Shown here: positions 1,282 through 26,223 of the stretch, one piece after another | Numbering within the stretch: the stretch's first letter is position 1 | How the letters are laid out: every line of letters starts with the position of its first letter | The notes under the pieces: model-generated | The model's database searches: none | Told to the model about the DNA's origin: nothing | The model's input: the letters and a program-made list of their open reading frames with translations, nothing else | Assembly: GCA_001275005.1 (NCBI GenBank) | Contig: JWZX01002700.1 | Span: 1-33,658, forward strand | From: Chrysochromulina tobinii | Taxonomy: Eukaryota | Length of the DNA stretch: 33,658 nt | Direction: 5' to 3' | Translations under genes and position numbers: made by a program

Positions 1282-1413
1282 CGGTGTCGACGGAGATGCT
1301 CCGTCGGCGTTTGGTCCGACGGCGATTCGATTTTCCGAAATCGTCCCTCCCAAGTTTGATCAGTTTGGGCGCGCTCGGCTTCGCCAGACCAAGTATGGTC
1401 TTTTCGTTGGGGC

Positions 1414-3410: not shown

Positions 3411-3547
3411 TGCGACGCTCGGGCCGCCAACCGCCAATTCACACGATGCATTTCACAGTCACAATAAAATTCGATTCGTTGAGACTCTTGAGGTCGCGCC
3501 ACAATCTGGGCCCAATCTGAACTTTCACTCTCTCACGAAGTATACAC

Positions 3548-6500
3548 ATGATCTTCCCCTGCTACCTCGCGACGGCCTTCGATTCGGTGGACCTGACCCT
3601 TCCGCTGCTCGCGAAGGCCATCGGTGGAGCTGCTCTGCTCGTCGACATCGCGCACCGCGGCACTGCCACGCCTCGCGTCTCCCTCGGTGCGAGCGCACAG
3701 GCCACACTGGAGGTGGTTGAGCGCCTCGGGGGCACCCTTGGCTTCACGCCAACGCCCTACCTTGATGGGTTTGTCGGCGGCCATGCGCAGACAATCTGGT
3801 ATGGGCTCAAACTCGACGAGCCAAGGTTGCCTTTTTATTCAGTGGATTCGTGGCGAACGGAAGATGGAGGCACCGTCGCAATCGCTTGGCCAGATCCTCC
3901 GACGCATCATGAATGGCCACCGACAGCGCCGGTGGTCTTGGTCCTCCCCGGCCTTTGTGGCAGCATCAAAGGCACTGGGCATGCGCTCCAGGCACTGTTT
4001 GCATCTGGCGTGCGGCCGGCCGTGCTGCATGCTCGCGGATGTGGCCATGACCTCACCTCAGCGTGCTTCAACCTCTTCGGCTCCACCGACGACGTGCGCG
4101 CTGCCATCGGCCGAGTCAAGGATCTCTACCCCGGCGCCCGGGTCGGGCTGTACGGCATCAGCGCGGGCACGGCGCTCCTCGTGCGCTACCTCGGTGAGGA
4201 GGGCAGCCGCACGCCCGTCGTGGCCGCTGTGGCCAACTGCCCGGGCTACGATATCGGCGTGTGCCTCACCCGCGTCGGCTGGATCTACGACTGTGGGTTT
4301 TATCTCGGGGTACTGAAGCGTCATTGGCTGGGCGGGCGTAACGGCGAGCTGCTGCGCGTGCGCAACCCAGAGGCATGCCGTCGCATGCAAAGCGCCACCG
4401 ATATGCATGCCTTTCAGGTGGCGGCCTCGCCCTTTGCGGCGCCGGAGGCGGAGGGGGCGGGCCGCGGCGAGGGTACCAGCAGCGGGGCGGTGGGGACTGG
4501 CTTCGCCGCCTTCCTCGCTGCCAGCAACCCAATGGGGGTCGCGCACCGCATCAGCATCCCAGTGCTCATCCTCAATTCCGACGACGACCCCGTGTGCGAC
4601 GCTCGCAACCAGGACGAGAATGTGCCGCCGCTCCTCGCGAGGGGCTGCGAGCGAGCGGTCCTTCTGCGCCTGCCCAAGGGCGGACACTGCTGCTTCGCCA
4701 CGGGCTGGCGAGCCAAGCGCTGGGGCGATCATCTCGCCGCCGGCTTCCTTGCGGCCTTTGCGCGCGAAGAGGGGACGGTGCATGTCGAGGGGCAGGAGGA
4801 GAGCGCCATGTCGAGCGTCAGGTCGAGCGCCATGGCTGCGCTGGGGTCGACGCCACTCACCTCTGCCGAGGTTGGCAGCGCGCCGGTCGCTTCCGCCAGT
4901 GTCGCAACCACTCTAGTGAACTCCGCAGCTGCAGCTCCCAAGGGTTCACATAGCAGCCGTGGCAGCGCCCGTGGCAGCGCCTCGAGCCTCCGCTGGTTCG
5001 GTGCGCCACGGCGGCCGCGCCCCTGGCGGCTCGGGCCGCTGCCGTGGCGGCAGCAGCGTGCTTCGATCGTCATGCTGACGCCGTCGGAGGCGGCCGCTGC
5101 CGCCGAGTCGGAGGCGGCGGCTGCAGCAGCGCTCGTGTCGCCAGCGTCTCCAACGGCCCTGGTCAGCGGGCTCAGTGCCCCGCTCTCGGCCGAGCAAGAG
5201 CAGCGCCAGCGCTCGGCACGGCGCGAGGAGGAGAGCGAGGAGAGCGAGGTGATCGCGATCGCTGCCCCCGCTCTGCTCAACTCGCTGCTGGATCCCTTTT
5301 TGAGCTTCATTGACACCCTTTGGGTTTCGCGGCTCGGCACGACGGCACTGGGCGCGGTCGCTGCGAGCAGTGAGCTCTTCACCCTGACCATCGCCGCGTC
5401 CCTCGCTCTCCGTGAGTCCGCCTCGTCGACGATCGCGCGGCTGGTCGCGCAGGGCCAGTTCCGCGAGGCTGAGTCGTACGCTCGCCGCTCCCTCCAGCTT
5501 GCTCTGGGCATAGGACTCGTGCTCGGCGCCGTCTTGGGCGGTCCGAGCGCCCCTTGGTGCGTCGGCTTGATGGGAGCGCCGATCGGCTCGCCCCTGCACG
5601 CGCATGCGGTTGCCTACGTGCGCATCCGTGCACTCGCGCTGCCGTGTTCGGTTGGATTCTTCGCGGCCAACGGCATCTTTCGCGGCCTCGGCGACACCCG
5701 CGCACCTCTGCGAGCGACGGCCGTGGCGGCATTGGTCAACTTTCTCCTCGATCCCCTGCTGATGCTCCGCCCAATTGGGCTGGGCGTGGCGGGCGTCTCG
5801 GCCGCCACCGCCATTGCACAGGTCTGCGCGTTTGCCCTGCTACTGCGCACGCTTGCTGCGCGGATGCCGTTGGCGTCGCCCCAGGCGTTGCCCTCGCCGC
5901 CCGCGCCGCCCCAGGCGCCGCCCCAGGCGTCGCCCTCACCGCCCTCGCCGCCCTCTCCGAGCTCGCCTGTGGGCGTTCGGGAGGAGGCCTCCGCGCGTAA
6001 GCTCGCAGGGACGAGCCTCGCCACACTCCTTCGCAGCAGCAGCACTGTCGGCACCTGGGTATACATCGCCTCGACCGTCTCGCGCCAACTGGGGCCGACG
6101 GCGATCGCGGCGCACGGGGTCGTGCTCAAGGTGTGGCTCCTGCTCGTCCTCGCGGCCGAGGCGCCCGCCGTCGCCGGCCAGGTGCTGTGCGCGCGCGCAA
6201 TCTCGCAGGGCGAGCTCGCACGAGCTCGCGCTCTGCTGAAGCGGCTGCTCGTCCGCTGCTCCGCTCTCGGAGTGGTGACGGCGGTCGTACTGCTCGCGCT
6301 CGGAGGGCCGGCGAGTGCCTTCTTCTTCACCTCCGCGGACCCAGCAACTGCGGAGCTCACGCGCGGGCTCTTCCGATGGGCTGCCATCTGCACCCCGCTC
6401 ATCGCGCCGAATGCGCTGCTCGAGGCAGTGCTCCTTGGATCAGGGCGCTCGTACAAATTCCTCGCGCTCTCGACCTTCGCCAACGCCCTCGTCGTCACCA

Positions 6501-6673
6501 CGCTCACGACCGCGGCCATCGCGGTGCGCCCGAAGCCCTCGACGGCGTGGGCATGCATCGCCGTATTCTTCGTGCTCCGCATTACGTGCGCGGGGCTGCG
6601 GCTGCGTAGCCCGCGGGCGGGCTTTGGGAGGTGGGGTGACAACTCCAGGGAAGGTGTTCAGCATCCTTCATGA
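3548..6673 (+). CDS. Fusion of an alpha/beta hydrolase (YheT/ABHD1-3-like, ~3770-4765) and a MATE/DinF-like transporter (~5250-6610), 1041 aa
   Basis: Hydrolase motifs: GHAQTIW, DGGTVAIAW, VVLVLPGLCG, ARGCG, nucleophile elbow GISAG, DDPV, GGHC. MATE motifs: IAAPALLNSLLDPFLSFIDTLWVSRLGTTALGA, YVRIRALALP, GIFRGLGDTRAPL, NFLLDPLL, GVAGVSAATAIAQ, LGPTAIAAH. Single uninterrupted ORF. Confidence 0.85.
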   Translation: MIFPCYLATAFDSVDLTLPLLAKAIGGAALLVDIAHRGTATPRVSLGASAQATLEVVERLGGTLGFTPTPYLDGFVGGHAQTIWYGLKLDEPRLPFYSVDSWRTEDGGTVAIAWPDPPTHHEWPPTAPVVLVLPGLCGSIKGTGHALQALFASGVRPAVLHARGCGHDLTSACFNLFGSTDDVRAAIGRVKDLYPGARVGLYGISAGTALLVRYLGEEGSRTPVVAAVANCPGYDIGVCLTRVGWIYDCGFYLGVLKRHWLGGRNGELLRVRNPEACRRMQSATDMHAFQVAASPFAAPEAEGAGRGEGTSSGAVGTGFAAFLAASNPMGVAHRISIPVLILNSDDDPVCDARNQDENVPPLLARGCERAVLLRLPKGGHCCFATGWRAKRWGDHLAAGFLAAFAREEGTVHVEGQEESAMSSVRSSAMAALGSTPLTSAEVGSAPVASASVATTLVNSAAAAPKGSHSSRGSARGSASSLRWFGAPRRPRPWRLGPLPWRQQRASIVMLTPSEAAAAAESEAAAAAALVSPASPTALVSGLSAPLSAEQEQRQRSARREEESEESEVIAIAAPALLNSLLDPFLSFIDTLWVSRLGTTALGAVAASSELFTLTIAASLALRESASSTIARLVAQGQFREAESYARRSLQLALGIGLVLGAVLGGPSAPWCVGLMGAPIGSPLHAHAVAYVRIRALALPCSVGFFAANGIFRGLGDTRAPLRATAVAALVNFLLDPLLMLRPIGLGVAGVSAATAIAQVCAFALLLRTLAARMPLASPQALPSPPAPPQAPPQASPSPPSPPSPSSPVGVREEASARKLAGTSLATLLRSSSTVGTWVYIASTVSRQLGPTAIAAHGVVLKVWLLLVLAAEAPAVAGQVLCARAISQGELARARALLKRLLVRCSALGVVTAVVLLALGGPASAFFFTSADPATAELTRGLFRWAAICTPLIAPNALLEAVLLGSGRSYKFLALSTFANALVVTTLTTAAIAVRPKPSTAWACIAVFFVLRITCAGLRLRSPRAGFGRWGDNSREGVQHPS

Positions 6674-7248
6674 TGTTGTTTCGATTCGCGTACAATTGTG
6701 AATTGTAACATAATGAACATCGTGAAGACCCGGGAGGTGTTCCGGTTTCGCATGCGGGTTTCGGCTCGTGGCAATTGCTCGTGGCACGGTCGTGGCCTCG
6801 TCCCCCCCTCTAGTGTCTTGTGTGAACGGTGGATGAGTCTAGTCCCTTCTATCCATCTATACCCAATTATACCCTCGTCACTGATCCGATCCCCTCCACA
6901 TCTTGCGATCGGGCTCCTCCGCGCTGACCGCTGAAGGACGACCGGTCGGTAAGAACCTGCCAAGGGGCGATCTCGGAGGCATCGGCTCCGTTGAGCCCCA
7001 GGCGTCGCGAGAGGGGTGATTAGACTCAACAAGGTCACGAACACTCTCGACTCTCCCCTGAGGAATCCCTCCGGAGTCCGGACCCTCCGGTATCTCGTAC
7101 GACCTCCGACGGAGGTTACCGGTCTAAGTATTGTTCCGTTAGGCCCGTTACTCGCATGCCTAGCAGAAAATGGAAAATCGATTCGCCGACGGAGTTCCGA
7201 CGGTCCGCCACAGCAGGAGCCTCGCCGACCGTCTTCGTGGCGTGATCG

Positions 7249-9981
7249 ATGACGTCTATGAAAGCCACGCTCTTCCTCGCGCTCGTCGCCTCGGCCGCGG
7301 GCGTCATCATCCGAGGCCCGAGCGTCACCTATGATACATACATCAGGGCCGGCACTAATAACGCTACAAACTACAACCACTTGAACATCGGGGGGTGGGA
7401 CGGACCGTTCACGATCTCGGCCACGAACGTCGTCTCAGGCGTCACTTCGGACACGTGCGCCGTCCTGATGAAGTTCGACTTGAGCTCCATCGTCGGTGCC
7501 ACGCTCGTGCCGACCAACCCGGTCTGGCTCAACTACTTTGTGATCGACGCGGGCAACCCCGCCTCGCTCCGCGAGCTCACCGTTCCCTGGGACCATGTGT
7601 GTGCACACGCCGCCTGCGAAGACGCGCGCTCCCCACACAACCGCGTGTGGCACCCTGGCTGAGGCCCTCTTCCCGCTGACGCGTCCCTTTCTGCCCCTCC
7701 CTGCTTTTTCGACAGTCCACGGTCACGTGGACCAACCTCCCATTCGCACCGTCATCGTGGAACAACTCCAACGTCGGCGGCGCCGGAGCCTTCCCAGGAA
7801 CCCTTGGCTGGCAGAGGTTTGACGTGACCTCATCGATTGCCGCGTGGCTCGCCGGTAGCCGTACAAACAACGGCTGGATTGTGTTGCCTACTGGCGGCAA
7901 CAACGGCGTCGATCTACAGTTCTCGACGAACGTGAACTCCCCGTACCTCGATGTCCCAACGGTGGGGAGTTCACCTATAGGTGAACTCTACGGCGCCGCC
8001 GCCTCCGAGCCCCTCTAAGCCGCCGCCTCGTGCACCGCCGCCCCCGAGCCCGCCCATGCTGCCTCCCTTCGGGATGCTCGAGTTCAACAGCCAGACGGCG
8101 AGCGTCTCCGGCGGCTGCCAATCGGCAACAATCTCCACCGACAATCCGAACAGAAACCAAGGCCCGTTGGCGGCGCCGGGCCCTGCGCCGTCTAGCGAGC
8201 TCTTGTCCTGGGACGGCGCTTCGATCACGGGCCACCGGGACTACGTCGTGTTGCAGTTCACCAACCTCTTTGGGACTGCGAGCCACCAAATCCATCCGCA
8301 CGACATCGTTACGGCCGCAAAGTTTCGCTACTTTATTTCCGACGTCGGCGAGCAAGCAAGCGTGCACGAGATCCTCCATCCATGGAATGCCAATACCGTG
8401 ACGCTCAACAGCTTCGCGGGCAGCGGTGGCCTCACGGTGGGGGCTGACTACCGCGCGGAGGTAATCGCCACTGCACCGGGGACTTCGGGCTGGAAAGAGA
8501 TCGACGTCACCGCGTCCATCCTCCGGTGGCTCGGGACGAATCCTTCCGGCACGAACAACAACGGCTGGATTTTCGTGCCCACGGGAGGCAACAACGGTGC
8601 CCAGATCCGTAGCTGCACCTCGTCTGCTAGTCAGCGCCCATACCTGCAGGTCAACTATCAGCTCGCGCCGCCCGCGCCGCCCTCACCGCCCCGCCCGCCG
8701 CCCTCGCCGCCCCGCCCGCCGCCCAAGCCTCCCCCGCCGCCCTTGCCGCCACTCGACGCCATCATCCTCTCAGGCCCGAGCGCCTCGAGGTCGACCTGGA
8801 TCCGCTCGACGCAGCCCACAACTGTGCAAGCGCAAGCGCCTTACCCGAACAACGTCATCTGGTGGGACGGCAACTCCCGAGATGAGACAGACCGCGACTA
8901 CGTGCTTCTCTGGTTCGACATTTCGGGGATCCCAGCGGGCCGCTTCCAGTCCGCGACCCTCCGGTACGTTATCGGCGGGGACGGCAACTCGCCGGGCAAT
9001 ATGGGCGAGCTGCACGAGCTCCTCGTCCCGTGGAGCATGTCCACCTCGTACAGCTCGCTGCCGTACGTGCCCACCAGCACCACCGGCGGCTCGTCGAGCA
9101 CCTATGGCGCGGCGGATCACAACATGCCGTGCTCCCTTGGCACCCACTCTGTCGATGTGACCGACAGCGTCAGGGCGTGGCTCTCTGGCACGCCCAACTA
9201 CGGCTGGATCGTGGTCCCGACCTTTTCCGACGGCTGCGGCATGCAGTCGCACCTCTCCACCACGGGCGGCGCGCCCCAGCTCATCGTCTCCCTCGTCGCG
9301 TCTCCGCGGGCGCCGCCCTCGCCGCCCTCGCCACCGGCCTTGCCACCGTCGCCGCCCTCGCCACCGCGGCCGCCGCCGCGGCCGCCGCCGCGGCCACCGC
9401 CGCCGTTGCTGCCGGGCGCAAGCTACGTTGCCGCCATCACAGCGACCTTCACCGTGGCGGGCGATGTCTCGAGCTTCGATCAGAACGCATTCAAGAACCG
9501 CCTGGCGACCCGTTTGGGCGTGTTCTCGTCCGCGATCTCGCTCAGCGTCACCTCCGCTTCCGTCGCGGTCGCCGCCACCATCTTGTACCCGAGCCCGGCG
9601 GCGGCGAGTACCGCGGCGGCGACGCTCGCCGCGACGACGCCAGCCGCGCTCAGCGCTGCGCTTGGCGTCACCGTGCAGGCGGTTGCCAACGTCGCACCGA
9701 CGACGGTCGCCGTCGCTCCGCCCCCGCCGCCGTTCAACTCCGGCAGCCTGGCTTTGAACGCGGGCAGCGGGGCCGGCGTGTCTTCCAGTGTGGTGATCGG
9801 CGTTGCGGTGGGCGTGGGCGTGCCTCTCTTCGTGCTCCTCGTCGCCATCATCGTGTGCACCTTTAAGCTCCGCCAGAAGAAGGCGACGACGATCGTCAAG
9901 GCCATCCCGACCACGACCATCGACAACCCGATAGCGCAGTCCTCGGCCACGAGCGGCGTCGAGATGAAGGACGCAATCTGA
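7249..9981 (+). CDS. Type I membrane protein, paralog B: signal peptide, three DNRLRE(CBM96)-like domains with Pro-rich linkers, a possible SEA-like module, one TM helix and a short tail. Exon 1 is 7249-7596, intron 7597-7715, exon 2 starts at 7716. The frame is disrupted by a 13-bp insertion at 7978-7990.
   Basis: Signal peptide MTSMKATLFLALVASAAG. DVT..(I/V)..WL...N(N/Y)GWI occurs three times. TM segment VVIGVAVGVGVPLFVLLVAIIVC is followed by basic KLRQKK. The 119-nt GT-AG intron is homologous to the paralog A intron. Confidence 0.8.
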
Positions 9982-12053: not shown

Positions 12054-12203
12054 GGATCTACCAATCAGGCGCGACCCGTGTGAACGTACCGGGTAAACAC
12101 GACAGACGCGACAACCGGTGCTACGTGGAAAGAAAGAGGAAAGGACCTACACAGGACCATGGGCTTGCGGGAGTGATTGCTGCAGGGGTTGCTGGGAGCC
12201 TCT

Positions 12204-12226
12204 TTGACTTGACTTGACTTGACTTG
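12204..12226. repeat. (GACTT)n microsatellite in the ~207-bp bidirectional intergenic region
   Basis: ttgacttgacttgacttgacttg, lying between the ATGs at 12053 (-) and 12261 (+). Confidence 0.85.
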
Positions 12227-12260
12227 TCTTGCGGAATTCATCTTCTCAGCGTCGTCGAGC

Positions 12261-15200
12261 ATGCCTCGCACGCGCACCTGCGTCTGCGTCCGCTGCGAGA
12301 AGTCGTATCGCACGACTTACCGTGGCGCACAACCACTTTGCAAGCAGTGTACGCCCGATAAGGCTGCAGGCGCCTCTCCACCCGTAAAGGCTGTTGGCAC
12401 CGGGCCTGGCCAGACAAGCGGCGCACAAGGCGCCTCTCCGGCCTTTGAGAGCGTGTTGTACATGCCAAAGGAGGCGGAGCTCGCCTTCACGGCTGGGCAC
12501 TGCCTGTTACACTCGATCACCGCCATGGATCCGTACGCTGACACCTCCTTCGAGGAGCTGCGGCACGCGGCATACCAGCAGTCGCCGCCACCGCGGACGG
12601 TTGACGGGTTCGTGGGTGAGGGCTTCTGCGACGCGCTCGAGCTCCGGCGCATGCGCAAGCACCAGGTGGCACTGACGCTGGCGCCGGACGGCGCCGGCGG
12701 CTGTGCTGCCATCCTGCATGTGCGCTCGACCGGCCCGCGCCAGGTGGCCGCCCCTGTGGCTCTGTCGGAGTTGTGGGAGTTCGCAAACTTCCCGGTCCAG
12801 CTGCCCGGCGCACCGTCGGAGCTCGCCCAGCGCGAGAACTTCGAGCCGATGATCGTGTGGGAGGAGGGAGCTTGGTTCGCCACCCGAGGCTGGATGGACA
12901 TCGGTGACCACGTGTTCGAGAGCATGGGCGACGTGCCCTCGTCGGACCGAACGGACTGGGAGGGGTCGCCTCGAGGAGCCCAACACGGCGCTCCATCTCG
13001 AGGAGCCCAACACGGCGCTCAATCTCGAGGAGCCCAGGGGCATCCATCGTCGGGGCAGCAGTGCCCCGCTTCGGGGCCGCTCGTCTGTGACGAGGCGCCC
13101 GAGATGGCGCCCGAGCTGGTGAGAAAGCGCCGTGGCGCGCGGCTGCAGTCGATCACTGCCTCGGAGGTACACGCGCATGCATCCTTCGAAGAGATGCGCT
13201 TCGCTGCGTGGCAGCGCCCGTCGGGCGGGCCGCCGTCGTTGGCCTACGGCGGCGGCATCACCGCCTCACTCGCCTCCGTCGCCTGCTTCACCTCCGCGCC
13301 CAACATGGCGCCTGCCTCGCTTCTCGCCTCGACCTTCGGCGCCCAACACGGCGCCCACGCCTGGCCCAGGGCACCTTTGGCCCCAACGGACGTTTCGCCG
13401 CGAGCTCTCACCGCCATGGGCGCCGTGCTGGGCAGCACCGTCGGCGCCGCCTTCGCTGACGCCGCCGGCGCCCCGCCAGGGCCAGAGCCGCTGCTCGGCT
13501 GCCTGCCGTTTGGCGCTCCCACCTTGAGCACGCTCCAGCTGGCTGCCTCGAGGGTCGCGGCGGCCATCCACGACAGCCGCCAGCGTAGGCGGCTTCGTGC
13601 TGGCGCTGCCAGTGGCGTCGACGGCGACGTCGACGTTGGCGGCGGCGGCGGCCGAAGCGGCAGCCGGAGCGGCAGCGTCGGGCGGCAGATGGGCAGGAGT
13701 GGGCAAAGGGCGGATCGGATGCTTGTGCTCGTGTGTGGTGGGGCGGCTGGGGGCGCCAACGAGATACCGGTAGAGATCTGCGTGGCCTCGAGCGCCGCCG
13801 TGCGCGCGCTCTGCGCCACCATCCACCTGATGCTCTCGTCTGGCTTTGGCGACGACGAAGACGAGGACGAGGACGACGATGACGAGGACGAGCGTGCGCA
13901 TCCTCCTGTGGAAGGAGCTGTGGAAGGAGCCAGGGAGGTGCACGCCGCAGCCGCGGCAGAGGGCCGCCCTGTCGAGCCGATCACGGTGGAGCCATGCGCC
14001 GGCCGACCCATGCGCGTTGCATCGACGGCTCCCAACGAGTCCGCAACACCGACGGACACGGCGCCGCCCGACACGGCGCCGCTCGACACGGCGCCGCTCG
14101 ACACGGCGCCGTCCATACGTTTGACGATGCCGCCATTGCTGACGGTGCTGAGCCTCCAAGCCATCGTCGACTACTGCATGCTCCGCCAGCGTGTGAGCTC
14201 GGCCGAGCCTCTTGCACACGACCTTCCACACGACCCGATCGCGCGGCACGATCCCATCGCACACGATCCGATCGGCTGGATGTGCCGCCGCGCCCATCTA
14301 GGCGAGGGCTTCAGCCCTGCCGAGCGCCGTGCCTTGGGATGGACAAGGCGTGCGAGCAGCAGTGCATGCAGCAGTTCATGCAGCAGTGCGGGCCGCGGAG
14401 GCGGCGGCTTGGGCGATGCCGCGGGCAGCGTCGGCGACGGCGATGGGGAGTTCCCACAGGCGCCTTCAGAACTGCCCACACCCTTTGACACACCCTTCCT
14501 ACGCCCGCGCCCGAGCGATCCCGCCCGATTCGCGCCGCCCTTTGCGCCGCCCTTTGCGCCCACGGTCTCGCCGCTGGTGGTGGATGCGTCGGGTCGCCCT
14601 TGCCGCCTGCAGGCCATCACGGCGATGGCGGCGTATGAGAGCGCTTCCTTTGAGGAGATTCGCTTCTCCGCGTGGCTACGCGACAAGAGCGACCAAGGGC
14701 GCCTCGCGACCGACGCGCCGATGCAACGGCGGGCACTGCTGCCGCCGCTTCCCTCGTTGCCGCATTCCTCGTTGATCGACGACGACGACGTCGGCGGCGG
14801 CGGCGGCGGCGGCGCTGACGACGACTGGTCTTCGCCACTGCCAGTCCTCGCCTCGCCACCGCCCGCGCGCGCCCTCGCCGCCCCTCGGGATATCCGCACC
14901 GTCGCCGCCACCACTCAGAGCGGCCAGGCTCTCGCACCGCCGGCGCTCGCACCGCCGCCGCTGCCGTTACCGGCCGACAGTCCGACCCCTTCGCTGCCAG
15001 CCGAACCGGAGGGCCCAGAGCCCAACACGACGCCTAGTTGGTTCGAGACTTCTTTTCACGGGGCCGCTGCCGCCGGCGCCACGGCGCCCGGTACGGCGCC
15101 CGGTACGCCCACGTGGCTCCCAGCGGCTGGAGGGTCGAGCGCTGCGTCGAGCGCTGCGACGAGCGCTGCGTCGAGCGCTGCGTCGGGCGCTGCGTCGAGC

Positions 15201-17402
15201 GCTGCGTCGAGCGCTGCGTCGAGCGCTGCGTCGAGCGCTGCGTCGAGCGCTGCGTCGGGCGCTGCGTCGGGCGCTGCGTCGAGCGCTGCGTCGGGCGCTG
15301 CCTCGAGCGCTGCGTCGGGCGCTGGCTTGGGCCGACAGAGGCTGCGGCCGCCGCCGCTGCTGGCCCCGTTGGAGGTGGACTCGACGGCACGGCCGCTGCT
15401 GACCACACGCATGCTCCGCTCACTCCTCAGCTCCTCCTCCCTGCAGGCCCAGCCGCGCGCGTGGCGGCTCATGGCGCTGGACTTTCACACCGCCACGGCG
15501 CTCGCGCAGCTGCCCACGCGCGGCGTGTGCGAGCTGGCCACGGCGGCCTCGTATCTCGACTGTGCTCCGCTGCTCGAGATCGCAATCTCGAATCTCGCCG
15601 AGCGGCTGGGCTCGTGCAATCTCCCGCACGAGATCCGCGCCCTCTTCGACATGCCCGAGAGGGACTCGCCGCAAGCGCCGTACTGCGCGCCACAAGCGAC
15701 CGCGCCACAAGCTACCTTCGCTCGTGCCGCCGCCGACAGCAAAGGGTCCGGCGCTGTGGTAGCCATGGCCGGCGCTGTGGTAGCCATGGCCAGCACGGTG
15801 GCAGCCGGCGGTGGCCAGGTGCGAATCATCCATGATGGCCGTGGCGATGATGTGGTCGGCGGCTCGCCCTTTTTAGGCAGCCGTCGACATAGTGAGCGCC
15901 ATGCTGAGCGCTCTCGGCTGACAGCAGAGGAGTCCTCGCGCTTTGCTCCACTGCCATCCCCTCTAGCTGCGGCCTCGCGCCCTCCTGCCGCGCCGCCCGC
16001 GTCGTCGGCGCTTGCGCTGAAGCGGCGCCAGGGCAAGAAAGGGCATGGCAGGAAGCGCACGGCCGGCCTCGAGGCGACAGCGCATGGGCATTCGTCGGGC
16101 AGCCGGGCGGATGACGAGGTGGAGGGCGGCATGAGCGCCGAGGAGGAGGAGGAGCTGCATTGGCTGGAGACGCTCGGTGTGAACGAGGAGGCTCGATGTG
16201 AACGAGGAGGTGAGGATGAGGAGGCTGGCGCGGTGGAGGCGGCGACGACTTTGCCGACCGATCGCCCACCCTTTGCTTTGGCCACGCTCACCACGGCGCT
16301 CACCACGGCGCTCACCGCCACCTCGTCGTCAATCGCGGCAGACACAGCCGCCGCCACTGCCACTGCCGCCACTGCCACTGCCGCCACTGCTGCCGCGACC
16401 GCCGCCGCGGCCGCCATCCCAACGGCTTGGCCGGTGGCGAGCCTGGCCACGCCGTACCTGGACGCAGACCTCGTCGAGCAAGCCCTGCTGCGTCTACCGA
16501 TGCGATCGCTCCTCATCGCGCGTCGCGTGAGTGAAGCGTGGCGCGCCGGCGTGGCACTGCTGATGCGCAACTCAGCGTGGCAGGTTCGTCATGTGGGTGT
16601 GCGCGAGCTGCTCGAGGGCGGTGCGAGTGACGAGACGATCGCTCGACGCGCGCAGCTCGCGCGTCATGAGCTCGAGGCGATCGATCAGGATGGCAATACG
16701 CCCCTCCACTTGGCAGTGCGCTGTGCTGGGCGTGAGCCGCTTGGCGCATCTCCGCAGACGTCGCGACGAGACGCGAGCGAGCACAGGCGCCAACGCGAGC
16801 TCGACGAGCTCGAAGAAATCGACGAAATCGACGAAACGGCCACCGCGGCGAGGAGCTCGTCGAGGGCAGCCGCGCGGCTTGCCGGCGGCGCTACGGGCGG
16901 CAGCGCCCGTTCTGTGCGCTGTCCCGAGCGGATCTCGGCAGAGCTGCTGAGCGCCATGGCGGCCGCAGGTGCCGAGACGGCGGCTCTCTCGGCCGAGTAC
17001 CGGCGGGGCGAGGTGCCTCTCCACGTGGCACTGCGCCTCGGCCTGGGGCGGCCGAAGGTGCTCGCCCTCCTGCACGCTGCGCCGCGCGCCGCCTCGTGTC
17101 TCGACTACCGTGGCCGCTCGCCCCTGCACCTGGCCGCGTGCTACGGCGCGCCGTGCGCGGTCGTGCAGGCCCTCCTCAACTACCGGCCTCACGCGGCCGT
17201 CACCTGCGATGACGAAGGGCACTCGCCCCTCGATTTGGCGCTTCGTCGCAAGCACGCCAACCCACACGTCATCGCAATGCTCGAGCGGCATCGCGACGCC
17301 GTCTTTGTCGCACTCGAGGCCGACGATCTGCAGTGGACCTTTGGCGAGCAGACCGAGACTGAGACCGAGGAGGACGACGAGCACGAGCTCTTCACGCCGT
17401 GA
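12261..17402 (+). CDS. Large multidomain protein (~1713 aa): N-terminal CxxC..CxxC finger, 3 GLEBS-like motifs, split Skp1-like domain, F-box-like motif and C-terminal ankyrin repeats
   Basis: First ATG is at 12261. GLEBS-like: LHSITAMDPYADTSFEELR, LQSITASEVHAHASFEEMR, LQAITAMAAYESASFEEIR. Skp1-like: ELATAASYLDCAPLLEIAISNLAERL...PHEIRALFDM. F-box-like: LDADLVEQALLRLPMRSLLIARRVSEAWR. Ankyrin: DQDGNTPLHLA, GEVPLHVA, DYRGRSPLHLAA, DDEGHSPLDLA. Confidence 0.85.
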   Translation: MPRTRTCVCVRCEKSYRTTYRGAQPLCKQCTPDKAAGASPPVKAVGTGPGQTSGAQGASPAFESVLYMPKEAELAFTAGHCLLHSITAMDPYADTSFEELRHAAYQQSPPPRTVDGFVGEGFCDALELRRMRKHQVALTLAPDGAGGCAAILHVRSTGPRQVAAPVALSELWEFANFPVQLPGAPSELAQRENFEPMIVWEEGAWFATRGWMDIGDHVFESMGDVPSSDRTDWEGSPRGAQHGAPSRGAQHGAQSRGAQGHPSSGQQCPASGPLVCDEAPEMAPELVRKRRGARLQSITASEVHAHASFEEMRFAAWQRPSGGPPSLAYGGGITASLASVACFTSAPNMAPASLLASTFGAQHGAHAWPRAPLAPTDVSPRALTAMGAVLGSTVGAAFADAAGAPPGPEPLLGCLPFGAPTLSTLQLAASRVAAAIHDSRQRRRLRAGAASGVDGDVDVGGGGGRSGSRSGSVGRQMGRSGQRADRMLVLVCGGAAGGANEIPVEICVASSAAVRALCATIHLMLSSGFGDDEDEDEDDDDEDERAHPPVEGAVEGAREVHAAAAAEGRPVEPITVEPCAGRPMRVASTAPNESATPTDTAPPDTAPLDTAPLDTAPSIRLTMPPLLTVLSLQAIVDYCMLRQRVSSAEPLAHDLPHDPIARHDPIAHDPIGWMCRRAHLGEGFSPAERRALGWTRRASSSACSSSCSSAGRGGGGLGDAAGSVGDGDGEFPQAPSELPTPFDTPFLRPRPSDPARFAPPFAPPFAPTVSPLVVDASGRPCRLQAITAMAAYESASFEEIRFSAWLRDKSDQGRLATDAPMQRRALLPPLPSLPHSSLIDDDDVGGGGGGGADDDWSSPLPVLASPPPARALAAPRDIRTVAATTQSGQALAPPALAPPPLPLPADSPTPSLPAEPEGPEPNTTPSWFETSFHGAAAAGATAPGTAPGTPTWLPAAGGSSAASSAATSAASSAASGAASSAASSAASSAASSAASSAASGAASGAASSAASGAASSAASGAGLGRQRLRPPPLLAPLEVDSTARPLLTTRMLRSLLSSSSLQAQPRAWRLMALDFHTATALAQLPTRGVCELATAASYLDCAPLLEIAISNLAERLGSCNLPHEIRALFDMPERDSPQAPYCAPQATAPQATFARAAADSKGSGAVVAMAGAVVAMASTVAAGGGQVRIIHDGRGDDVVGGSPFLGSRRHSERHAERSRLTAEESSRFAPLPSPLAAASRPPAAPPASSALALKRRQGKKGHGRKRTAGLEATAHGHSSGSRADDEVEGGMSAEEEEELHWLETLGVNEEARCERGGEDEEAGAVEAATTLPTDRPPFALATLTTALTTALTATSSSIAADTAAATATAATATAATAAATAAAAAIPTAWPVASLATPYLDADLVEQALLRLPMRSLLIARRVSEAWRAGVALLMRNSAWQVRHVGVRELLEGGASDETIARRAQLARHELEAIDQDGNTPLHLAVRCAGREPLGASPQTSRRDASEHRRQRELDELEEIDEIDETATAARSSSRAAARLAGGATGGSARSVRCPERISAELLSAMAAAGAETAALSAEYRRGEVPLHVALRLGLGRPKVLALLHAAPRAASCLDYRGRSPLHLAACYGAPCAVVQALLNYRPHAAVTCDDEGHSPLDLALRRKHANPHVIAMLERHRDAVFVALEADDLQWTFGEQTETETEEDDEHELFTP
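12970..13036 (+). repeat. 27-bp coding tandem repeat x2.5 (RGAQHGAxS)
   Basis: CTCGAGGAGCCCAACACGGCGCTC(C/A)AT at 12970 and 12997, with a partial copy at 13024. Confidence 0.9.
15134..15324 (+). repeat. 12-bp coding minisatellite x16, encoding S(S/G)AA
   Basis: GTCG(A/G)GCGCTGC units, in frame within the large ORF. Confidence 0.95.
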
Positions 17403-18378
17403 TGATCCAGCACCCGATGGGCCGCCCCATCCGGCGATAAGTGCTATTGAGGAGACACTCGTCTCTGTACGGAATAGAGCTCTAAAGCCATCAAACGGAG
17501 CCTCGCTCAACCAGTCGTTCTCCTCTAAGCGCTCTACGCAACGCCAGAAAAGCCCGCGCACGGCCGCGATCACTGCGCAATGACCTTATCGGTGCCGTAT
17601 TTGTTATTACCAAAATGTGAACGCCCCAATCCCCGCATCGTCAGTACGTACTTTATTGGTTTATTCATGACTTTATTTCAAGATTGACCGGTTGACACCC
17701 CGCCCCGGGACCTCCGCGCGGACGCGCTGCTCGAGCGGGCATCCGATCGGATAGCGATAGGCATAGGGTATTTCCCCAGGACGCGTTGTGCTGAAGAGAG
17801 ACTCGGATCACGAATTCGGACCGGTGGGTTCTAGCGCTTGCGCTAGATTGGTTGTCTTCCAGAGCGAACAACGTTAAGGGCGGTAGGCGCAACACCTCGA
17901 CCCGTACTGTCGAGCCCGGAGCGCCGGCGGGCGGGTGAAACTAACATGCATGCATGCGCATGAATATACAGAAGCATACTGTGCTTGCCAAATCTGGCGA
18001 AGCAAGATCCGTAATCATTGCGTGACGTGTCGCATAGATCTCCTGAGATGTCGCCCCAAGCGCGTCGCGCATCCTGGTCAGCGGCTCCGCCGCGTTTGTC
18101 GTGCCCCACCCTCCTCAGACCCGTACTGTTTAGAATAGGGGGACTCAGAGCTCGGCCTCACAAGGCCAGCTCTCGGGGCTGATTATTACTTAACATCCCT
18201 AACAAGTGTGATGCACAGATAAGACGGACCGGAATCCGGAAACATCTCACCGGAAACCTGCGTGTCTGATCCGGTGCTGAAGATGGAGGCGAGCACGCGC
18301 GGGACCCGACGTGCCCAAGCCCGGCCGTGCGGCCAGGGGCTTCCAATCCCAACATCCAACACGAAACATTACACAGCT

Positions 18379-20474
18379 TCAAAGTTGTTGCGAAATGTTA
18401 CGATGATGGATGTCATATCCCTTGCGCGCCAACCCTGCCGCATCATCGTCGATGTCGTCGTCGACTTTCGCCTTGACCTTCTTCAATGTGCTCTTCATTT
18501 GCGCATTCTGACTGTCTAGCTTTGATGCTTCAGCCGCTTTGCGCTCCTTGGACTCCGACGCCATGACGTTGCGTTGCCGCCCCGCCTCCTCGTCGGTGAT
18601 GTCGGTGTCCGTTGCCGCCTTGGCACTATTCAGTCCGTGCGCGAACTCGGCATTCTCTCGCGCGAGCCTCTCCGCCTCCTCTTGCTTTCGCTTACGCGAG
18701 GCTGCTGCAGCTTGGCGCCGCGCTTCGCCCAATGCCTCATCGGTGACGTCATCATCCGTCGCTGCCTTGACACTCTTGAGCCGCTTGTAGATCTCCAAGT
18801 TTGCCTGCGCAAGCGCCGCCGCCTCCGCCTTCCTGCGCTCCTTGGACTCGATCGCCATCTCTTTGCGTCGCACGGCCGAAGCTTCCGTGTCTAGCACGTT
18901 ATCCGTGACCGCCGTGACATTCCTTATGCGATGAGCCCTCTCGGCATTCTCGCGCGCTATCCGCTTTCGCTCAGCCTCTTTCCTCGCCTTGGAGTCGGCA
19001 GCAGCCTGGATGCGTGCCTCACCCGCCGCCTCGTCGGCGACGTCGTCGTCCGTGCGCTGCGTCACGGAGGCAATCTTCTTCAGGATCTCGGCATTCTCCG
19101 CGCCGATTTGGGAGTCCGCAAGGTCATCCATCGAGTACAGCTTCCGAAACTCGGAGCCATCGAACTTTACCGCCGCCTCGCGCTTCACAAAATGGGCCGA
19201 GAAGATCTTGTTCCGCACGCTCTGCCTGCTGGAGAGCGTCAGCCGCTCATTCTCTTCGATCTCAGCCTGGGTATCTCTCCTCAGCTGCGCAATCCGCCGT
19301 CGCCTCTGCTTCGTGAGCTGCTCCCTTGATTGCCCAGCTTCCTGCTTCATCTTTGCAACGCGCTCGCGCTTCTCCTTTTGCATGGCCATGAATTCCTCCC
19401 CTAACTGTGCCTTGCGCGACATTTCCCGCTCGGTGTCGGCCCGCAGTTGGGCGGCGTCCTTCGCCTTGCGACGGTGACTGAGCTGTAAGGCTTTGGTCAA
19501 CTTAGCATTCGTCGTCTGTTTCAGCAGCTCCGCAGCTTGGTGCCGCTCTTCGGTCGTCCGCTGCCGAAATTCTTGCACACTCTCGGCGAAAGCCAGCTTT
19601 TCCCTCACGTGCTCCTCCCGCAAAGCAGCCGCTGCAGCCTCTCCTGTACATCAAGCCGTGCATCCTTGCTGTCGTACCCGCCTTTGTCCTTCTCCACCTG
19701 CGCCCGGACAACGGCGTGGTGCTCCTCGCGAATCCGCTCAATTTTGTGCGCGTTGTCGATGCTCTCTTGTCGGACTTGACGTCCCTGCTCGAGGTTCCGA
19801 CGGATGAGCGCCCGCTGCACCCGATCGTTGACGCTGCGCATGCGTTCGCGCTTTTCCTGCGAGGCCTCGTACTGCTGGCGCGCCTTCTCTTGACGCACCT
19901 CGTCGCGCGTGCTACGATCTGCGTGCGCCTGCTCCACTGTGGCGCGATTTTCGAGTGACCTTTGGTATTTTGCGTACACGCCGGCGCTCACCGGCGACTC
20001 GCGAGCACTGCCAAGCAGGTCGACCGCGCCATTGCTCGCCGCTGAACGCGCCGTGCTCATGCCGAAGCCTTGTGATCTCGCCGAGTTGCAGGTGGAGCGC
20101 GCCGTCAGCGCGCCACCGGAGCGCGCCGTATGCGCGCCACCATCCTCAGGGTTCTGAGCGCGCACAATTCCACCCCGCGACGTGGCGTATGCCGCGCGTG
20201 TGAGTGACTGGGTGCGGATCTCGAAATTGGTGACTTTCTCAGGCAGTGCGCCATGCTCCTGCCCCCATAGGAGCGTGCCCATAAAGGTCAAATTGCTGAA
20301 GAACCACGTGCGCGTGGAGCTGAAGCTAATCGCCTGGAGCAAGCTACCGTTGTTCACGCGCTCGGGCTCGCGGCTTGTTAGCTGGCCGTCAGCGTTGACC
20401 ACCATCTTCGAATGCGATCCGGAAGCTGTACGGGCTGTTGCCGGCTCCGGATCTGTCGGTAGCGGGTCTTCCAT
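18379..20474 (-). CDS. Coiled-coil protein with ~4-5 tandem 49-aa repeats. Probably one gene split by a 1-bp frameshift near 19640. Start codon uncertain.
   Basis: ORFs 19605-20474 and 18379-19623 overlap and share E/R/K/Q/A-rich helical composition. Adding one G (CAG GAG [G]AG GCT GCA) gives DVQEEAAAAALREEHVREKL. The repeats begin TDDDVADEAAG, TDNVLDTEAS, TDDDVTDEALG, TDTDITDEEAG and VDDDIDDDAAG. Confidence 0.7.
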
Positions 20475-20834
20475 GGGGCAGTCCAGTCGGACTGCAGGCG
20501 TATGACTCTCGTCCGATTTATTGGTCCACGTTTTTGGGGTTGCGGAATTTTCGAAACGAATGCAAGAATTCTAAAATCAAACCAGGGACCCGGACATGCG
20601 GTTTTGGCCGCACGCTCCGCGCCTATGTAAGTCTGATGGGTTTGGTTATCGGTCAAACGTTTCGATGAACGTTTCTTTCGAAGAACTTCCCCTGACCAGG
20701 GAATTTCCCACAGTGTGGTTACTGACTGAACCTGTTACTGGACTAAACCTGACTTAATCCTGAAGGGGAACAAGGGGAATAACAAGGGAAACGTTAAGGG
20801 AACGACGATTTCGGTTTTCGCGCACTGAGCATAT

Positions 20835-21100
20835 ACATGCCCCGTGACACACGCTTGTCAACAGTCACTCTGCACACCGGCACCACCCTGCACCCTCACG
20901 CAGCGACCCGCACACTCCGCGCGCTCACGCTTCGCACCACCCTGACCGAAGCTGCACACGCACACTCCGCATACGCGCACCACCCGCAGCACCCGCACAC
21001 CCATAGCCATACACGCTGCACATGCACACTCCGGTCCGCTTACGCACCACCCGCACCACCCGCAGCACTCACTCAGAGCGCGTACGCATGCATCATTGAT
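20835..21100. repeat. CA-rich low-complexity tract (GCAC/CACCCGCA units), immediately 3' of the HET-domain gene
   Basis: Strong C/A skew with recurrent cgcac and cacccgca. Confidence 0.65.
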
Positions 21101-21104
21101 CACA

Positions 21105-23546
21105 CTATGCATGATGCAAGTCGCTGTCGTCGGCCTTGGAAGCGAAAAGGGAAGCGCGCGCAGAGCTGATCAACCCCTCGAAGACGCCAGCCGCTCGCAG
21201 ATCTTTCTCGTGGCACTTCTCTGTCTGCCCTGAGCCAAGCGTTTCGATCTCCACGGTGTAGAGCGCCTCCTCTGCATCCTCCTCTGCATCGTACGCGTTC
21301 ACATAGGCGAGAGTCTCCTCTCCGTTGCTGCGCTTCAGGTACACGCAGCTGCCGATGGCGTAGCGCTTCAGAATTAAGTCGGCCACCTTCTCCGAGACGG
21401 CAACACCAACAGTCTCAGGCTTCAACATAGGCGCATCAATCACATGCTCACTTGCTGGCGGTGACGCTTGCTTTCGAAACATCTCAATGACATGCCTATC
21501 GATCTCCAGGATCTTGGGCAACATGGTCTCCTTGTCCTTTGCATTGGTAACGATCACGTCCGGCTTCTTGAGGTGCTCGAACATTTCCTCGGGCGTCTTC
21601 TTGGACACCTTTTGAACGAGCCCCTCCTTATCATGCGTTTCGTCAGCCGTGTGGATACATTCAATCGTGTAGCGACTCTCAGCCTCCGTTGCGGGGCGGA
21701 GCCCATTGGACGTGACCGTCTGCATCGAGCACCATGCCTCCGTCAGCGGCCAGAATCTGGATGCGTACGACCCGTCGAGGAGAATGAGGACGCGCGCAGT
21801 CAGGTAAAGGTCGGCCATGGCGGCAAGCATCAGCTGGAACTCGGCCTTATCGTCGGGAGTCCGAGTGTCAACGCCATCCACTTTCTGGGGCATTGACGAG
21901 TAATCAAACCAGACCCACTTGATATCTGTGTGCGCTTCCAGATACGCCTTGATGGCCTTGAGTTGCTCGCCGTCGACATCAGGCTGGCTTTTGTCTTCCC
22001 ACCGATGGCTCACGAAGAGGATGTTCGCCATGATGCCACCGCCACAAAATGCGGGTTCGTGGAACGCGGATGCGAGGGGTATTCTTATCTTCGTTAGGTG
22101 GCCGTCCTTGCGCAGCGTCTGCATGCGAGGCAGCGACTTGGTGTCGCACTCGCGCACCCTTTCGGCGGGGATGAAGTAGAAGGAGGGTGCGTCGTCGTCC
22201 CACCCTTGGCTTTTGAGCTCTTTGATGGCCTGCTCCACCAGCTCCTTTTGGGCTTCGTCGGAGATACGCAGGCGTGATGCATACTTTTTGAGGAAGTCGA
22301 AGTTGCATGCCAAGACGAAAAGAAAGTACAGAGCAAATTTGCCATATAACAAGAACGGAGCACACTCGCCGTAGCAGGTCAAAGGCAGCTCGTACTTGTT
22401 CATCAGGTCCGTTCGGTCAAAGTAAGCGGCCGGGCGCGGTACAGAAAGTCGTTGCACAATGATGAGGAGGCGCATGAATGAGAAGAGTGTCAGTATCAGT
22501 GACGCGAGGCCCAGCACCATGGCAACGAGTATGTGTGGAGCGAGCAAGTGCTCATAGCCGTCGTCAGCGCTTGCACGGCCAGTGCCGAAAATGAAAAGTG
22601 AGATGAGAAACCAGGATGCAAAAATGAAGACGTTCACGTCAATTACGTCGCTCCCTAGGACTTGCACCATCGGCGCGTACTGCACGGCCTGGCACAGGTC
22701 CTCGTAAGTCACGTAGCCGCAATTGGGCACGGCAGGGCAGCTGGCATTGGCGGCAGATGCCTCGAACGCCGATACAAACGCAGCCTGGTCCTCACAAGCG
22801 ATGCCGTTGAGTGATAACTCAACGAAGACATTCAGCAGAGTCGCTTCAATTGGCACCCGCTGCATCGCCGTCAGAGCATAGGTGGCCACGCACGCCATTA
22901 TCATGGTGATGATGCCGACCCGCACTGCTTGCGAGAGGACGAATGACTTGTACTTCTCTTGGTATTTCTTGATGGAACGCAGCACAATCGTAAAAGAGTA
23001 GAATACGACAACAGCCCAGATATTGCCGAAGAACCAACCGAATACGTAAAAATCCAATTGCTCGCGAAAGTAAAACGCGAAGTATCCATAGATGGAGACG
23101 AGATACAAAGCAAACTCCAACGACATGGGCCACGTCCAGACGCGCTCGGTAAGGGCGTTTTGTTTACTGGCATCGTCAGAATCATTGACCTGGGCGAGGA
23201 GGAGCGATAAAAAGAGAGGAGGAGTTGAAGCGGCCCAGACTAGGATTCCAAGGGTCTGCCCTGCGGAGAGCTCTGTAAAGGACCCGGTCCAACCGGCGAC
23301 TTGATCACGTCGTGAGTATTGAGTGCCGGTGAACAATAAGAACATGGGCGCGGGCAGGGCCAGAAACAGGCGAAATAGTACGAAGGTCTGCCGGGTCTTG
23401 TCGGGCCACTTTCCAGAGGGCGTTCGACGTTTTGTCTCCTTGGCGGCAGGCATTCGCTCGGTTGCAGGAGGGACTGGGTCGATCGACGTGAGTGCGCTGG
23501 GAAGGACAGGGGCTTGGGCGCGGCGGGACATTTCGGAGCGAGCCAT
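21105..23546 (-). CDS. Multi-pass membrane protein (~8 TM) fused to a HET-like (heterokaryon incompatibility, TIR-related) domain and a C-terminal SH3/Tudor-like barrel, 813 aa
   Basis: About 8 hydrophobic segments lie at 22300-23390. HET-like motifs: ILFVSHRW...PDVDGEQL, WVWFDYSSMPQ, MLAAMADLY..ARVLIL, YASRFWPLTE. C-terminal barrel: IGSCVYLKRSNGEETLAYV...YTVEI...EKDLR. Confidence 0.85.
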   Translation of the reverse strand: MARSEMSRRAQAPVLPSALTSIDPVPPATERMPAAKETKRRTPSGKWPDKTRQTFVLFRLFLALPAPMFLLFTGTQYSRRDQVAGWTGSFTELSAGQTLGILVWAASTPPLFLSLLLAQVNDSDDASKQNALTERVWTWPMSLEFALYLVSIYGYFAFYFREQLDFYVFGWFFGNIWAVVVFYSFTIVLRSIKKYQEKYKSFVLSQAVRVGIITMIMACVATYALTAMQRVPIEATLLNVFVELSLNGIACEDQAAFVSAFEASAANASCPAVPNCGYVTYEDLCQAVQYAPMVQVLGSDVIDVNVFIFASWFLISLFIFGTGRASADDGYEHLLAPHILVAMVLGLASLILTLFSFMRLLIIVQRLSVPRPAAYFDRTDLMNKYELPLTCYGECAPFLLYGKFALYFLFVLACNFDFLKKYASRLRISDEAQKELVEQAIKELKSQGWDDDAPSFYFIPAERVRECDTKSLPRMQTLRKDGHLTKIRIPLASAFHEPAFCGGGIMANILFVSHRWEDKSQPDVDGEQLKAIKAYLEAHTDIKWVWFDYSSMPQKVDGVDTRTPDDKAEFQLMLAAMADLYLTARVLILLDGSYASRFWPLTEAWCSMQTVTSNGLRPATEAESRYTIECIHTADETHDKEGLVQKVSKKTPEEMFEHLKKPDVIVTNAKDKETMLPKILEIDRHVIEMFRKQASPPASEHVIDAPMLKPETVGVAVSEKVADLILKRYAIGSCVYLKRSNGEETLAYVNAYDAEEDAEEALYTVEIETLGSGQTEKCHEKDLRAAGVFEGLISSARASLFASKADDSDLHHA

Positions 23547-23637: not shown

Positions 23638-23726
23638 TAAAGCGGTCAGAGTTAGAGCAACCGGTGCTCCGCGAGCCCACCCTCCCGAAGTGGTGGGGCA
23701 CGGCCGGCGCTCCCTCGATTCCAAGA
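23638..23726. repeat. 89-bp direct repeat, copy 1
   Basis: TAAAGCGGTCAGAG...CTCGATTCCAAGA, identical base for base to 26135-26223. Confidence 0.97.
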
Positions 23727-23964
23727 CAATAGAGGGCCGCCAAACGTCCAACGAGGTATCATATCGGCGCCCATCGCAAGCATCTCGAAACAGAGGCACA
23801 ATCTGAAGATGAGAAAAATGACAACGACCTTTCCACCCCATTACAAGTTCTCTCATTTGGCGCGCGACGAGCGCTCTCTTCGCGCGCTCGCGTCCGGCGC
23901 GAACCACTATCGCGGCTCGAGCCTTTTGCATATGCCGCCAATGCCGTTCTCGTCGCCCTCCTCG

Positions 23965-25959: not shown

Positions 25960-26134
25960 CGCGACGAGGAGCAGGCGGACGGAGCGACAGCATGCAAAAT
26001 GCCTGCGAGTGCGCCAACGAAGACGTGCGAGACCCGGAGACGAGCGCTCAGAGTAAACGAATGGATTCTTTCCTTTTTTATCGACTAACAACGGCGGCCG
26101 CTCTGGAATTTGGTCACATACTAGCTAGCAGCTG

Positions 26135-26223
26135 TAAAGCGGTCAGAGTTAGAGCAACCGGTGCTCCGCGAGCCCACCCTCCCGAAGTGGTGGGGCACGG
26201 CCGGCGCTCCCTCGATTCCAAGA
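26135..26223. repeat. 89-bp direct repeat, copy 2
   Basis: Identical to 23638-23726. Confidence 0.97.

What the first reader, a model, noticed from the sequence alone, without database searches (positions are those of the whole stretch)
12504..14675. Triplicated Nup98-type GLEBS motif outside a nucleoporin
LHSITAMDPYADTSFEELRHAAY (~12504-12575), LQSITASEVHAHASFEEMRFAAW (~13143-13211) and LQAITAMAAYESASFEEIRFSAW (~14607-14675) match the Nup98/Nup116 pattern QxITAMxxYxxxSxEELR as I recall it, including the di-glutamate. There is no FG/GLFG repeat array and no Nup98 autoprotease domain. The Rae1-Nup98 complex is a known target of viral mRNA-export inhibitors, so multivalent Rae1 binding may be regulatory or conflict-related (inference).
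Basis: partly seen in the sequence, partly recalled or inferred. Interest (0 to 1): 0.7.

Follow-up and report, generated by a model that had tools for sequence, protein, structure and literature searches.

The report
Algal protein with three Rae1-docking motifs
A gene of a haptophyte alga encodes a large non-pore protein with three copies of the short motif that the nuclear-pore protein Nup98 uses to hold the mRNA-export factor Rae1, next to parts resembling a ubiquitin-ligase adaptor, so it likely recruits Rae1 away from the pore; such motifs turn out to be common outside nucleoporins, and binding is only predicted.

Summary
Confirmed. The three motifs lie in one stop-free 1713-codon ORF (12261-17402, +), the gene NCBI lists as Chrysochromulina tobinii Ctob_005076. 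Pfam Nup98_GLEBS scores 35.6 bits, above its cut-off of 27; copy 2 is degenerate. There are only 4 FG pairs and no Nup98 protease. RNA contigs cover all three copies and run unspliced through NCBI's predicted introns. An 83% identical ortholog keeps all three. Copy 3 is predicted to dock on the alga's own Rae1 (0.96, best control 0.01), which may reflect the solved Nup98 complex. The motif is not rare outside pores: of 141 profile hits, 21 are FG-poor non-nucleoporins with three or more copies, and 18 carry ubiquitin-system domains. This scan noted such cases before on other DNA. Best reading: a Rae1-recruiting, SCF-like adaptor (about 45%). A conflict role is unsupported. New variant of a known kind.

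The parts
12261..17402 (+). Single open reading frame, 1713 aa (P0001); NCBI's spliced 596-aa model of this gene is Ctob_005076
   Evidence: RNA contigs unspliced across the model's intron ends; ortholog P0002 of 1684 aa
12279..12350 (+). N-terminal CxxC...CxxC, likely zinc ribbon
   Evidence: sequence; kept in P0214 and P0333; Atlas hits under 0.9, a lead only
12453..12575 (+). GLEBS copy 1 (core 12507-12575) with an upstream segment that likely forms the hairpin
   Evidence: Pfam 19.4 bits; upstream segment conserved in distant relatives; 41 of 43 aa identical in ortholog
12576..12860 (+). Conserved region of unknown fold after copy 1
   Evidence: shared with P0214 and P0333; no Pfam hit; model uninformative, pLDDT 39
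13122..13211 (+). Basic RKRR stretch (possible nuclear signal) and GLEBS copy 2 (core 13143-13211), degenerate
   Evidence: no Pfam hit alone; 26 bits on a nucleoporin-derived profile; 32 of 32 aa identical in ortholog
13713..14201 (+). Two short stretches that may be remnants of a Skp1 POZ half, split by an acidic and low-complexity insert (weak, not established)
   Evidence: picked by eye; 2.2 bits together, reached by 3 of 500 shuffles; no Pfam or hhalign support; helix aa 629-647 pLDDT up to 84
14547..14675 (+). GLEBS copy 3 (core 14607-14675), best copy; predicted to bind host Rae1
   Evidence: Pfam 24.0 bits; PDB Nup98 chains; complex score 0.96 against best control 0.01
15483..15653 (+). 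Skp1-like C-terminal helices (the F-box-binding half), without Skp1's last helix
   Evidence: Atlas 0.91, 20 of 30 hits in the Skp1 set; Skp1 profile E 2e-5, 0 of 500 shuffles; PDB sequence hits weak, E 0.4-1.5; no Pfam Skp1 hit
16020..16058 (+). Bipartite-like basic stretch, possible nuclear localisation signal
   Evidence: pattern match, kept in ortholog; inference
16464..16547 (+). F-box-like stretch
   Evidence: Pfam F-box 19.2 bits, cut-off 20.5, E 0.0011; aa 1396-1440 are 44 of 45 identical in ortholog
16683..17282 (+). Ankyrin repeats, interrupted by an insert
   Evidence: Pfam Ank_2 45.7 bits, cut-off 27.3

Best explanation
This is a transcribed host gene for a large, low-complexity protein with three Nup98-type GLEBS motifs, at least one of which is predicted to dock the mRNA-export factor Rae1, and which likely works as a Rae1-recruiting adaptor of an SCF-type ubiquitin ligase. 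Shown: the motifs, the ankyrin repeats, RNA cover, conservation in an ortholog. Predicted: copy 3 on the top face of the alga's Rae1. Inferred: copy 1 binds too and copy 2 more weakly; the F-box-like stretch pairs with cellular Skp1 or with the protein's own Skp1-like helices; the ankyrins bind a substrate; and Rae1 serves as a cofactor that targets or stabilises the complex, as it does for PHR/Highwire ligases. Rae1 binding alone I put at about 75%; the full ligase-adaptor reading at about 45%.
For: Pfam GLEBS above cut-off for the protein. Motif cores 70 of 72 aa identical in the ortholog against 1395 of 1554 elsewhere (one-sided p 0.02), like the F-box (44 of 45) and ankyrins (103 of 105). 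Host Rae1 Ctob_011862 keeps R152 and R196, equal to human R172 and R216, the partners of Nup98 E201/E202 (PMC3783196, passages). Complex prediction: 0.96, best of 3 controls 0.01; the mark was reached by 51 of 78 solved and 2 of 108 mismatched pairs; runs agree in at least 69% of contacts; partner pLDDT at least 54; R152 pairs with the second Glu. A like complex is solved (3MMY), so the pass shows likeness, not binding. Skp1-like C-half, near-cut-off F-box and ankyrins. Of 24 profile hits with a non-nucleoporin partner domain, 18 carry RING, Deltex, BTB-BACK or TRAF domains, in 15 groups unrelated outside the motif and RING. PHR ligases bind Rae1 through a small motif and Skp/F-box proteins as well (PMC4806438, passages).
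Against: No copy passes the Pfam cut-off alone, copy 2 lacks Met and Tyr, and all lack the Asp of the Nup98 helix. The F-box is under its cut-off. Pfam finds no Skp1 domain, and the POZ half that binds cullin is unsupported. The model built with Skp1 rows gave only E 0.12 or worse against Skp1 structures. The protein has no RING. The full architecture was found in only one other protein. No RNA contig spans the gene, so one transcript is not shown. Three of the 18 ubiquitin-type hits are below Pfam cut-off and 4 are FG-rich, so may be Nup98-derived or fused gene models.
Confidence: 0.45

Rival explanations
1. A Rae1 sink or scaffold with no ligase role: the three motifs would hold Rae1 away from Nup98 and tune mRNA export, and the Skp1-like and F-box-like parts are relics or plain interaction modules.
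For: A free GLEBS peptide pulls RAE1 off the nuclear envelope and blocks mRNA export (PMC2133102, passages). 21 of 141 hits are FG-poor non-nucleoporins with three or more copies, many with no other domain. The cullin-binding half of Skp1 is unsupported.
Against: The F-box-like and Skp1-like stretches are better conserved (98%, 91%) than the linkers and inserts (72-89%).
Confidence: 0.22
2. A shuffled, lineage-restricted mosaic whose motifs no longer bind Rae1 usefully.
For: Low-complexity chain, 18% Ala; degenerate copy 2; borderline F-box; high-copy repeats on both flanks; one full-length relative only.
Against: Intact 5.1-kb frame in two organisms at 83% identity with the motifs most conserved; the N-terminal module is kept in relatives at 33-55% identity; RNA cover.
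Confidence: 0.13
3. Rae1, or whatever rides on it, is the target: the motifs would be bait that brings Rae1-bound viral proteins or RNPs to an SCF for destruction, a defence role.
For: The GLEBS face and the RNA/viral groove of Rae1 are separate surfaces (PMC3783196 and PMC9376891, passages), so GLEBS-held Rae1 could still capture groove binders. GLEBS often sits with ubiquitin domains, and twice with PARP domains.
Against: The motifs are conserved, not fast-changing. No viral relative or viral GLEBS was found in three scans of limited sensitivity. No infection data.
Confidence: 0.12
4. The motifs bind Bub3 and the protein acts in the spindle checkpoint, like Bub1, BubR1 or BuGZ.
For: Bub3 binds GLEBS motifs with the same EE, and Rae1 and Bub3 overlap in partners (PMC9147866, passages).
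Against: The copies match the Nup98 family model and Nup98 chains only. No kinase or TPR domain. Bub3 was not modelled.
Confidence: 0.08

Closest known systems
Nup98 / Nup116 GLEBS (Pfam PF21240; Rae1-Nup98 complex, PDB 3MMY)
   Same: ITAM-x2-Y-x3-S-x-EE-x-R core, di-glutamate, predicted seat on Rae1's top face. Multi-copy GLEBS also occurs in real Nup98s: 8 of 14 nucleoporin-marked hits have two or more.
   Different: No FG domain, no S59 autoprotease, no Nup96; Asp of the closing helix replaced by Ala; copy 2 degenerate; fused to Skp1-like, F-box-like and ankyrin parts.
PHR ubiquitin ligases (RPM-1, Highwire, MYCBP2/Phr1)
   Same: Huge ubiquitin-system proteins that bind Rae1 through a small motif and work with Skp and an F-box protein (PMC4806438, passages).
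   Different: No homology tested or seen; no RING-H2, RCC1-like or PHR domain here. Whether the PHR motif is GLEBS-like I could not read (paper not held).
Ankyrin/F-box SCF substrate adaptors (poxviral ANK/PRANC, Legionella AnkB)
   Same: F-box-like stretch and ankyrin repeats in one chain (papers seen as search listing only).
   Different: Host gene; F-box lies before the ankyrins; carries its own Skp1-like helices and three GLEBS motifs.
Bub1, BubR1/Mad3 and BuGZ GLEBS proteins
   Same: Non-nucleoporins that hold a Rae1/Bub3-family propeller through an EE motif (PMC9147866, passages).
   Different: Those motifs mainly serve Bub3 and are single; these are Nup98-type and triple.

Membership tests
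Nup98-type GLEBS motif (PF21240) | Family profile score above curated cut-off | tested here: met
   35.6 bits against 27 for the whole protein; single copies 19.4, none, 24.0
Nup98-type GLEBS motif (PF21240) | Di-glutamate, with matching arginines on Rae1 | tested here: met
   EE in 3 of 3 copies; host Rae1 R152 and R196 kept
Nup98-type GLEBS motif (PF21240) | N-terminal hairpin lying over the propeller | tested here: inconclusive
   copy 3 aligns over the upstream part of a nucleoporin profile and aa 779-788 touch Rae1 in the model; copies 1 and 2 not modelled
Nup98-type GLEBS motif (PF21240) | Physical binding to Rae1/Gle2 | not testable with these tools
   predicted for copy 3 only, 0.96 against 0.01, with a like solved complex
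Nup98/Nup116 nucleoporins | FG/GLFG repeat domain | tested here: not met
   0.23 FG per 100 aa; Nup98 FG domains have a median of 9 per 100 (PMC4283134, passage)
Nup98/Nup116 nucleoporins | Nucleoporin2 (S59) domain | tested here: not met
   no hit
Skp1 family | C-terminal helical F-box-binding half | tested here: met
   Atlas 0.91; own Skp1 profile E 2e-5, 0 of 500 shuffles; last helix absent; no Pfam hit
Skp1 family | N-terminal POZ half | tested here: inconclusive
   2.2 bits, 3 of 500 shuffles, segments chosen by eye; hhalign probability 0.7%; fold search E 0.12 or worse
F-box proteins | F-box above Pfam cut-off | tested here: inconclusive
   19.2 bits against 20.5, E 0.0011
F-box proteins | Binding to Skp1-Cullin1 and substrate ubiquitination | not testable with these tools
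   needs experiment
PHR ligases | RING-H2, RCC1-like and PHR domains | tested here: not met
   none in Pfam scan
Bub3-binding GLEBS proteins | Binding to Bub3 | not tested

The most novel reading that the evidence does not exclude
The Nup98 GLEBS is a mobile Rae1-recruitment module that eukaryotes have attached again and again to ubiquitin ligases (RING, Deltex, BTB, TRAF and here SCF-like), making Rae1 a general E3 cofactor. This algal protein would be a one-chain Skp1/F-box/ankyrin adaptor that loads up to three Rae1 molecules and so links mRNP export to ubiquitination.
Probability: 0.3. Interest if true: 0.75.

Novelty: new variant of a known kind. Interest (0 to 1): 0.5.

Why it matters
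The papers I read treat the Nup98-type GLEBS as the pore anchor of Rae1. Rae1 also acts in mitosis and with PHR ligases, and how it reaches those jobs is open. A set of non-pore proteins with Nup98-type GLEBS motifs, rich in ubiquitin-ligase domains, gives a direct list of candidates and a simple test (EE-to-KK pull-downs). For this alga, the public gene model drops most of copies 1 to 3 and the F-box, so the architecture is hidden in annotation. The single locus is one case among many, which limits its own weight.

Full report
Observation. The three peptides are in frame in one stop-free ORF of 1713 codons, window 12261-17402 (+). Pfam's Nup98_GLEBS model scores the protein 35.6 bits against a cut-off of 27; alone, copy 1 scores 19.4, copy 3 scores 24.0 and copy 2 is not reported. 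The only PDB sequences that match copy 3 are four Nup98 GLEBS chains, weakly. A profile from 23 motif windows of nucleoporin-marked hits scores the copies 30, 26 and 35 bits, but those hits were found with our own motifs, so this is partly circular. The protein has 4 FG pairs and no nucleoporin domain. All copies keep S-x-EE-x-R. Copy 2 has lost the Met and Tyr, and all three replace the Asp of the closing helix by Ala. That shared change, and 41-48 of 69 identical bases, suggest old internal duplication of one captured motif (inference).

Organism and gene. A named record, Ctob_005076 of Chrysochromulina tobinii, is a 596-aa spliced model made of three exact blocks of this ORF, on a contig of the window's length. 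The model starts inside copy 1 and removes copies 2 and 3 and the F-box. Five of six listed RNA runs were laid. Their contigs cover each copy and run unspliced through the first donor (3 of 5 runs), the second donor and the second acceptor, with no joint matching either intron. Eight bins at 18307-21242 have no RNA cover in 3 of 3 runs where the DNA run is even, so the cover is not DNA background; the runs were chosen for holding this gene, and no contig spans it. An unnamed ortholog, P0002 (1684 aa, 83% identity), has the same layout. Motif cores are 70 of 72 identical against 1395 of 1554 aligned positions elsewhere (p 0.02). More distant proteins (P0214, P0333, P0268; 33-55% identity) share copy 1 and the region after it, and the first two the zinc-ribbon-like start as well.

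The rest of the chain. Ankyrin repeats are clear. An F-box-like stretch falls just under cut-off (19.2 against 20.5). Residues 1075-1131 resemble the C-terminal half of Skp1: Atlas 0.91 with 20 of 30 hits in the Skp1 set, E 2e-5 on a six-sequence Skp1 profile with 0 of 500 shuffles reaching it, and pLDDT near 90 in a model given Skp1 rows. Pfam does not report it. I suspected the Skp1 POZ half at aa 485-530 and 618-647, but the tests were weak or negative. Two basic stretches may be nuclear signals (inference).

Rae1 binding. I found the host Rae1 (Ctob_011862; PDB E 6e-108) through a motif scan and a homolog search. It keeps the two arginines that pair with Nup98 E201/E202 (PMC3783196, passages). 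Folding it with aa 758-812 (copy 3) gave 0.96 in three runs, best of three controls 0.01. The mark was reached by 51 of 78 solved and 2 of 108 mismatched pairs (eukaryotes: 39 of 65 with no like older complex, 2 of 126 unrelated; peptides untested). The runs agree in at least 69% of contacts, and partner pLDDT is at least 54. The S-F-E-E-I-R-F segment and W805 make the best contacts, R152 with the second Glu. Since Rae1-Nup98 is solved, this shows likeness and compatibility, not binding. Copies 1 and 2 and Bub3 were not modelled. The core lies within the Nup98 181-224 segment that suffices for binding (PMC2133102, passages).

How common is this? A profile of the three copies against 1.84 billion representatives gave 141 hits; 123 have Pfam GLEBS at E 1e-4 or better. 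Fourteen carry a nucleoporin domain, and 8 of these have two or more copies. Sixty-one are FG-poor, lack a nucleoporin domain and have two or more copies; 21 have three or more. The search favours multi-copy proteins, and some hits are fragments. Of 24 hits with another kind of domain, 18 have RING, Deltex C-terminal, BTB-BACK or TRAF domains, in 15 groups unrelated over 80 aa or more outside the motif; the others are PARP (2), AAA (2), DUF4246 and a protease inhibitor. No proteome background was computed and the library has no taxonomy. Earlier notes of this scan describe GLEBS in Mx-like GTPases, a zinc-finger protein, TRIM and HECT ligases and a giant virus; they are unchecked, and agree with my own count.

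Mechanism. The best reading is a Rae1-recruiting adaptor tied to SCF-type ubiquitination (0.45): motifs dock Rae1 (predicted for copy 3), the F-box-like part joins Skp1 or folds back on the internal Skp1-like helices (inferred), and ankyrins bind a substrate (inferred). PHR ligases are the working precedent (PMC4806438, passages). Rivals are a Rae1 sink (0.22), a decayed mosaic (0.13), a defence bait (0.12) and a Bub3 partner (0.08).

Novelty. Searches for GLEBS with non-nucleoporin (0 papers), PF21240 (0), GLEBS with RING ligases (19 papers, 18 listed), multiple copies (47 papers, 15 listed) and Chrysochromulina with F-box/Skp1/ankyrin (398 papers holding three of four terms, 10 listed) showed no title or abstract start describing this protein or multi-GLEBS ligase adaptors. 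I saw listings only, opened no supplements, and the library lacks most subscription papers. The motif, Rae1-binding ligases and ankyrin/F-box adaptors are each known; the combination is undescribed as far as these searches reach. It is not a nucleoporin. Verdict: real, new variant of a known kind, interest 0.5.

Noticed in passing
window 18379-20570 (-): Two long ORFs overlap near 19640 in different frames; the DNA run shows one extra base there in about half the depth, so this is likely one gene with an assembly error or an allele. No RNA cover in three runs.
   Followed up: partly
window 823-1359 (-) and 7246-9981 (+): Near-copies, in opposite orientation, of a secreted proline-rich protein gene with CBM96-like domains.
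   Followed up: no
window 29105-31762 (-): Protein(s) with SLATT_1 and DUF4231 domains, the SLOG-associated two-helix effector families.
   Followed up: no
window 3521-6673 (+): One ORF joins an alpha/beta hydrolase to a MatE transporter.
   Followed up: no
window about 23650-23810 and 26110-26230: Shared sequence on both sides of a 719-codon ORF with no Pfam hit; possibly the ends of a mobile element.
   Followed up: no
window 12068-12434 and 17573-18306: High-copy repeats flank the GLEBS gene on both sides, with summed DNA depth in the thousands against about 85.
   Followed up: no
proteins P0210, P0219, P0249, P0279, P0238, P0303, P0330, P0344: GLEBS motifs joined to Deltex, PARP, kinase-RING, UBA-RING, BTB-BACK and TRAF domains; each is a candidate Rae1-binding enzyme.
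   Followed up: partly
protein P0209: A Nup98-like protein with the S59 domain, seven motif copies and few FG pairs.
   Followed up: no
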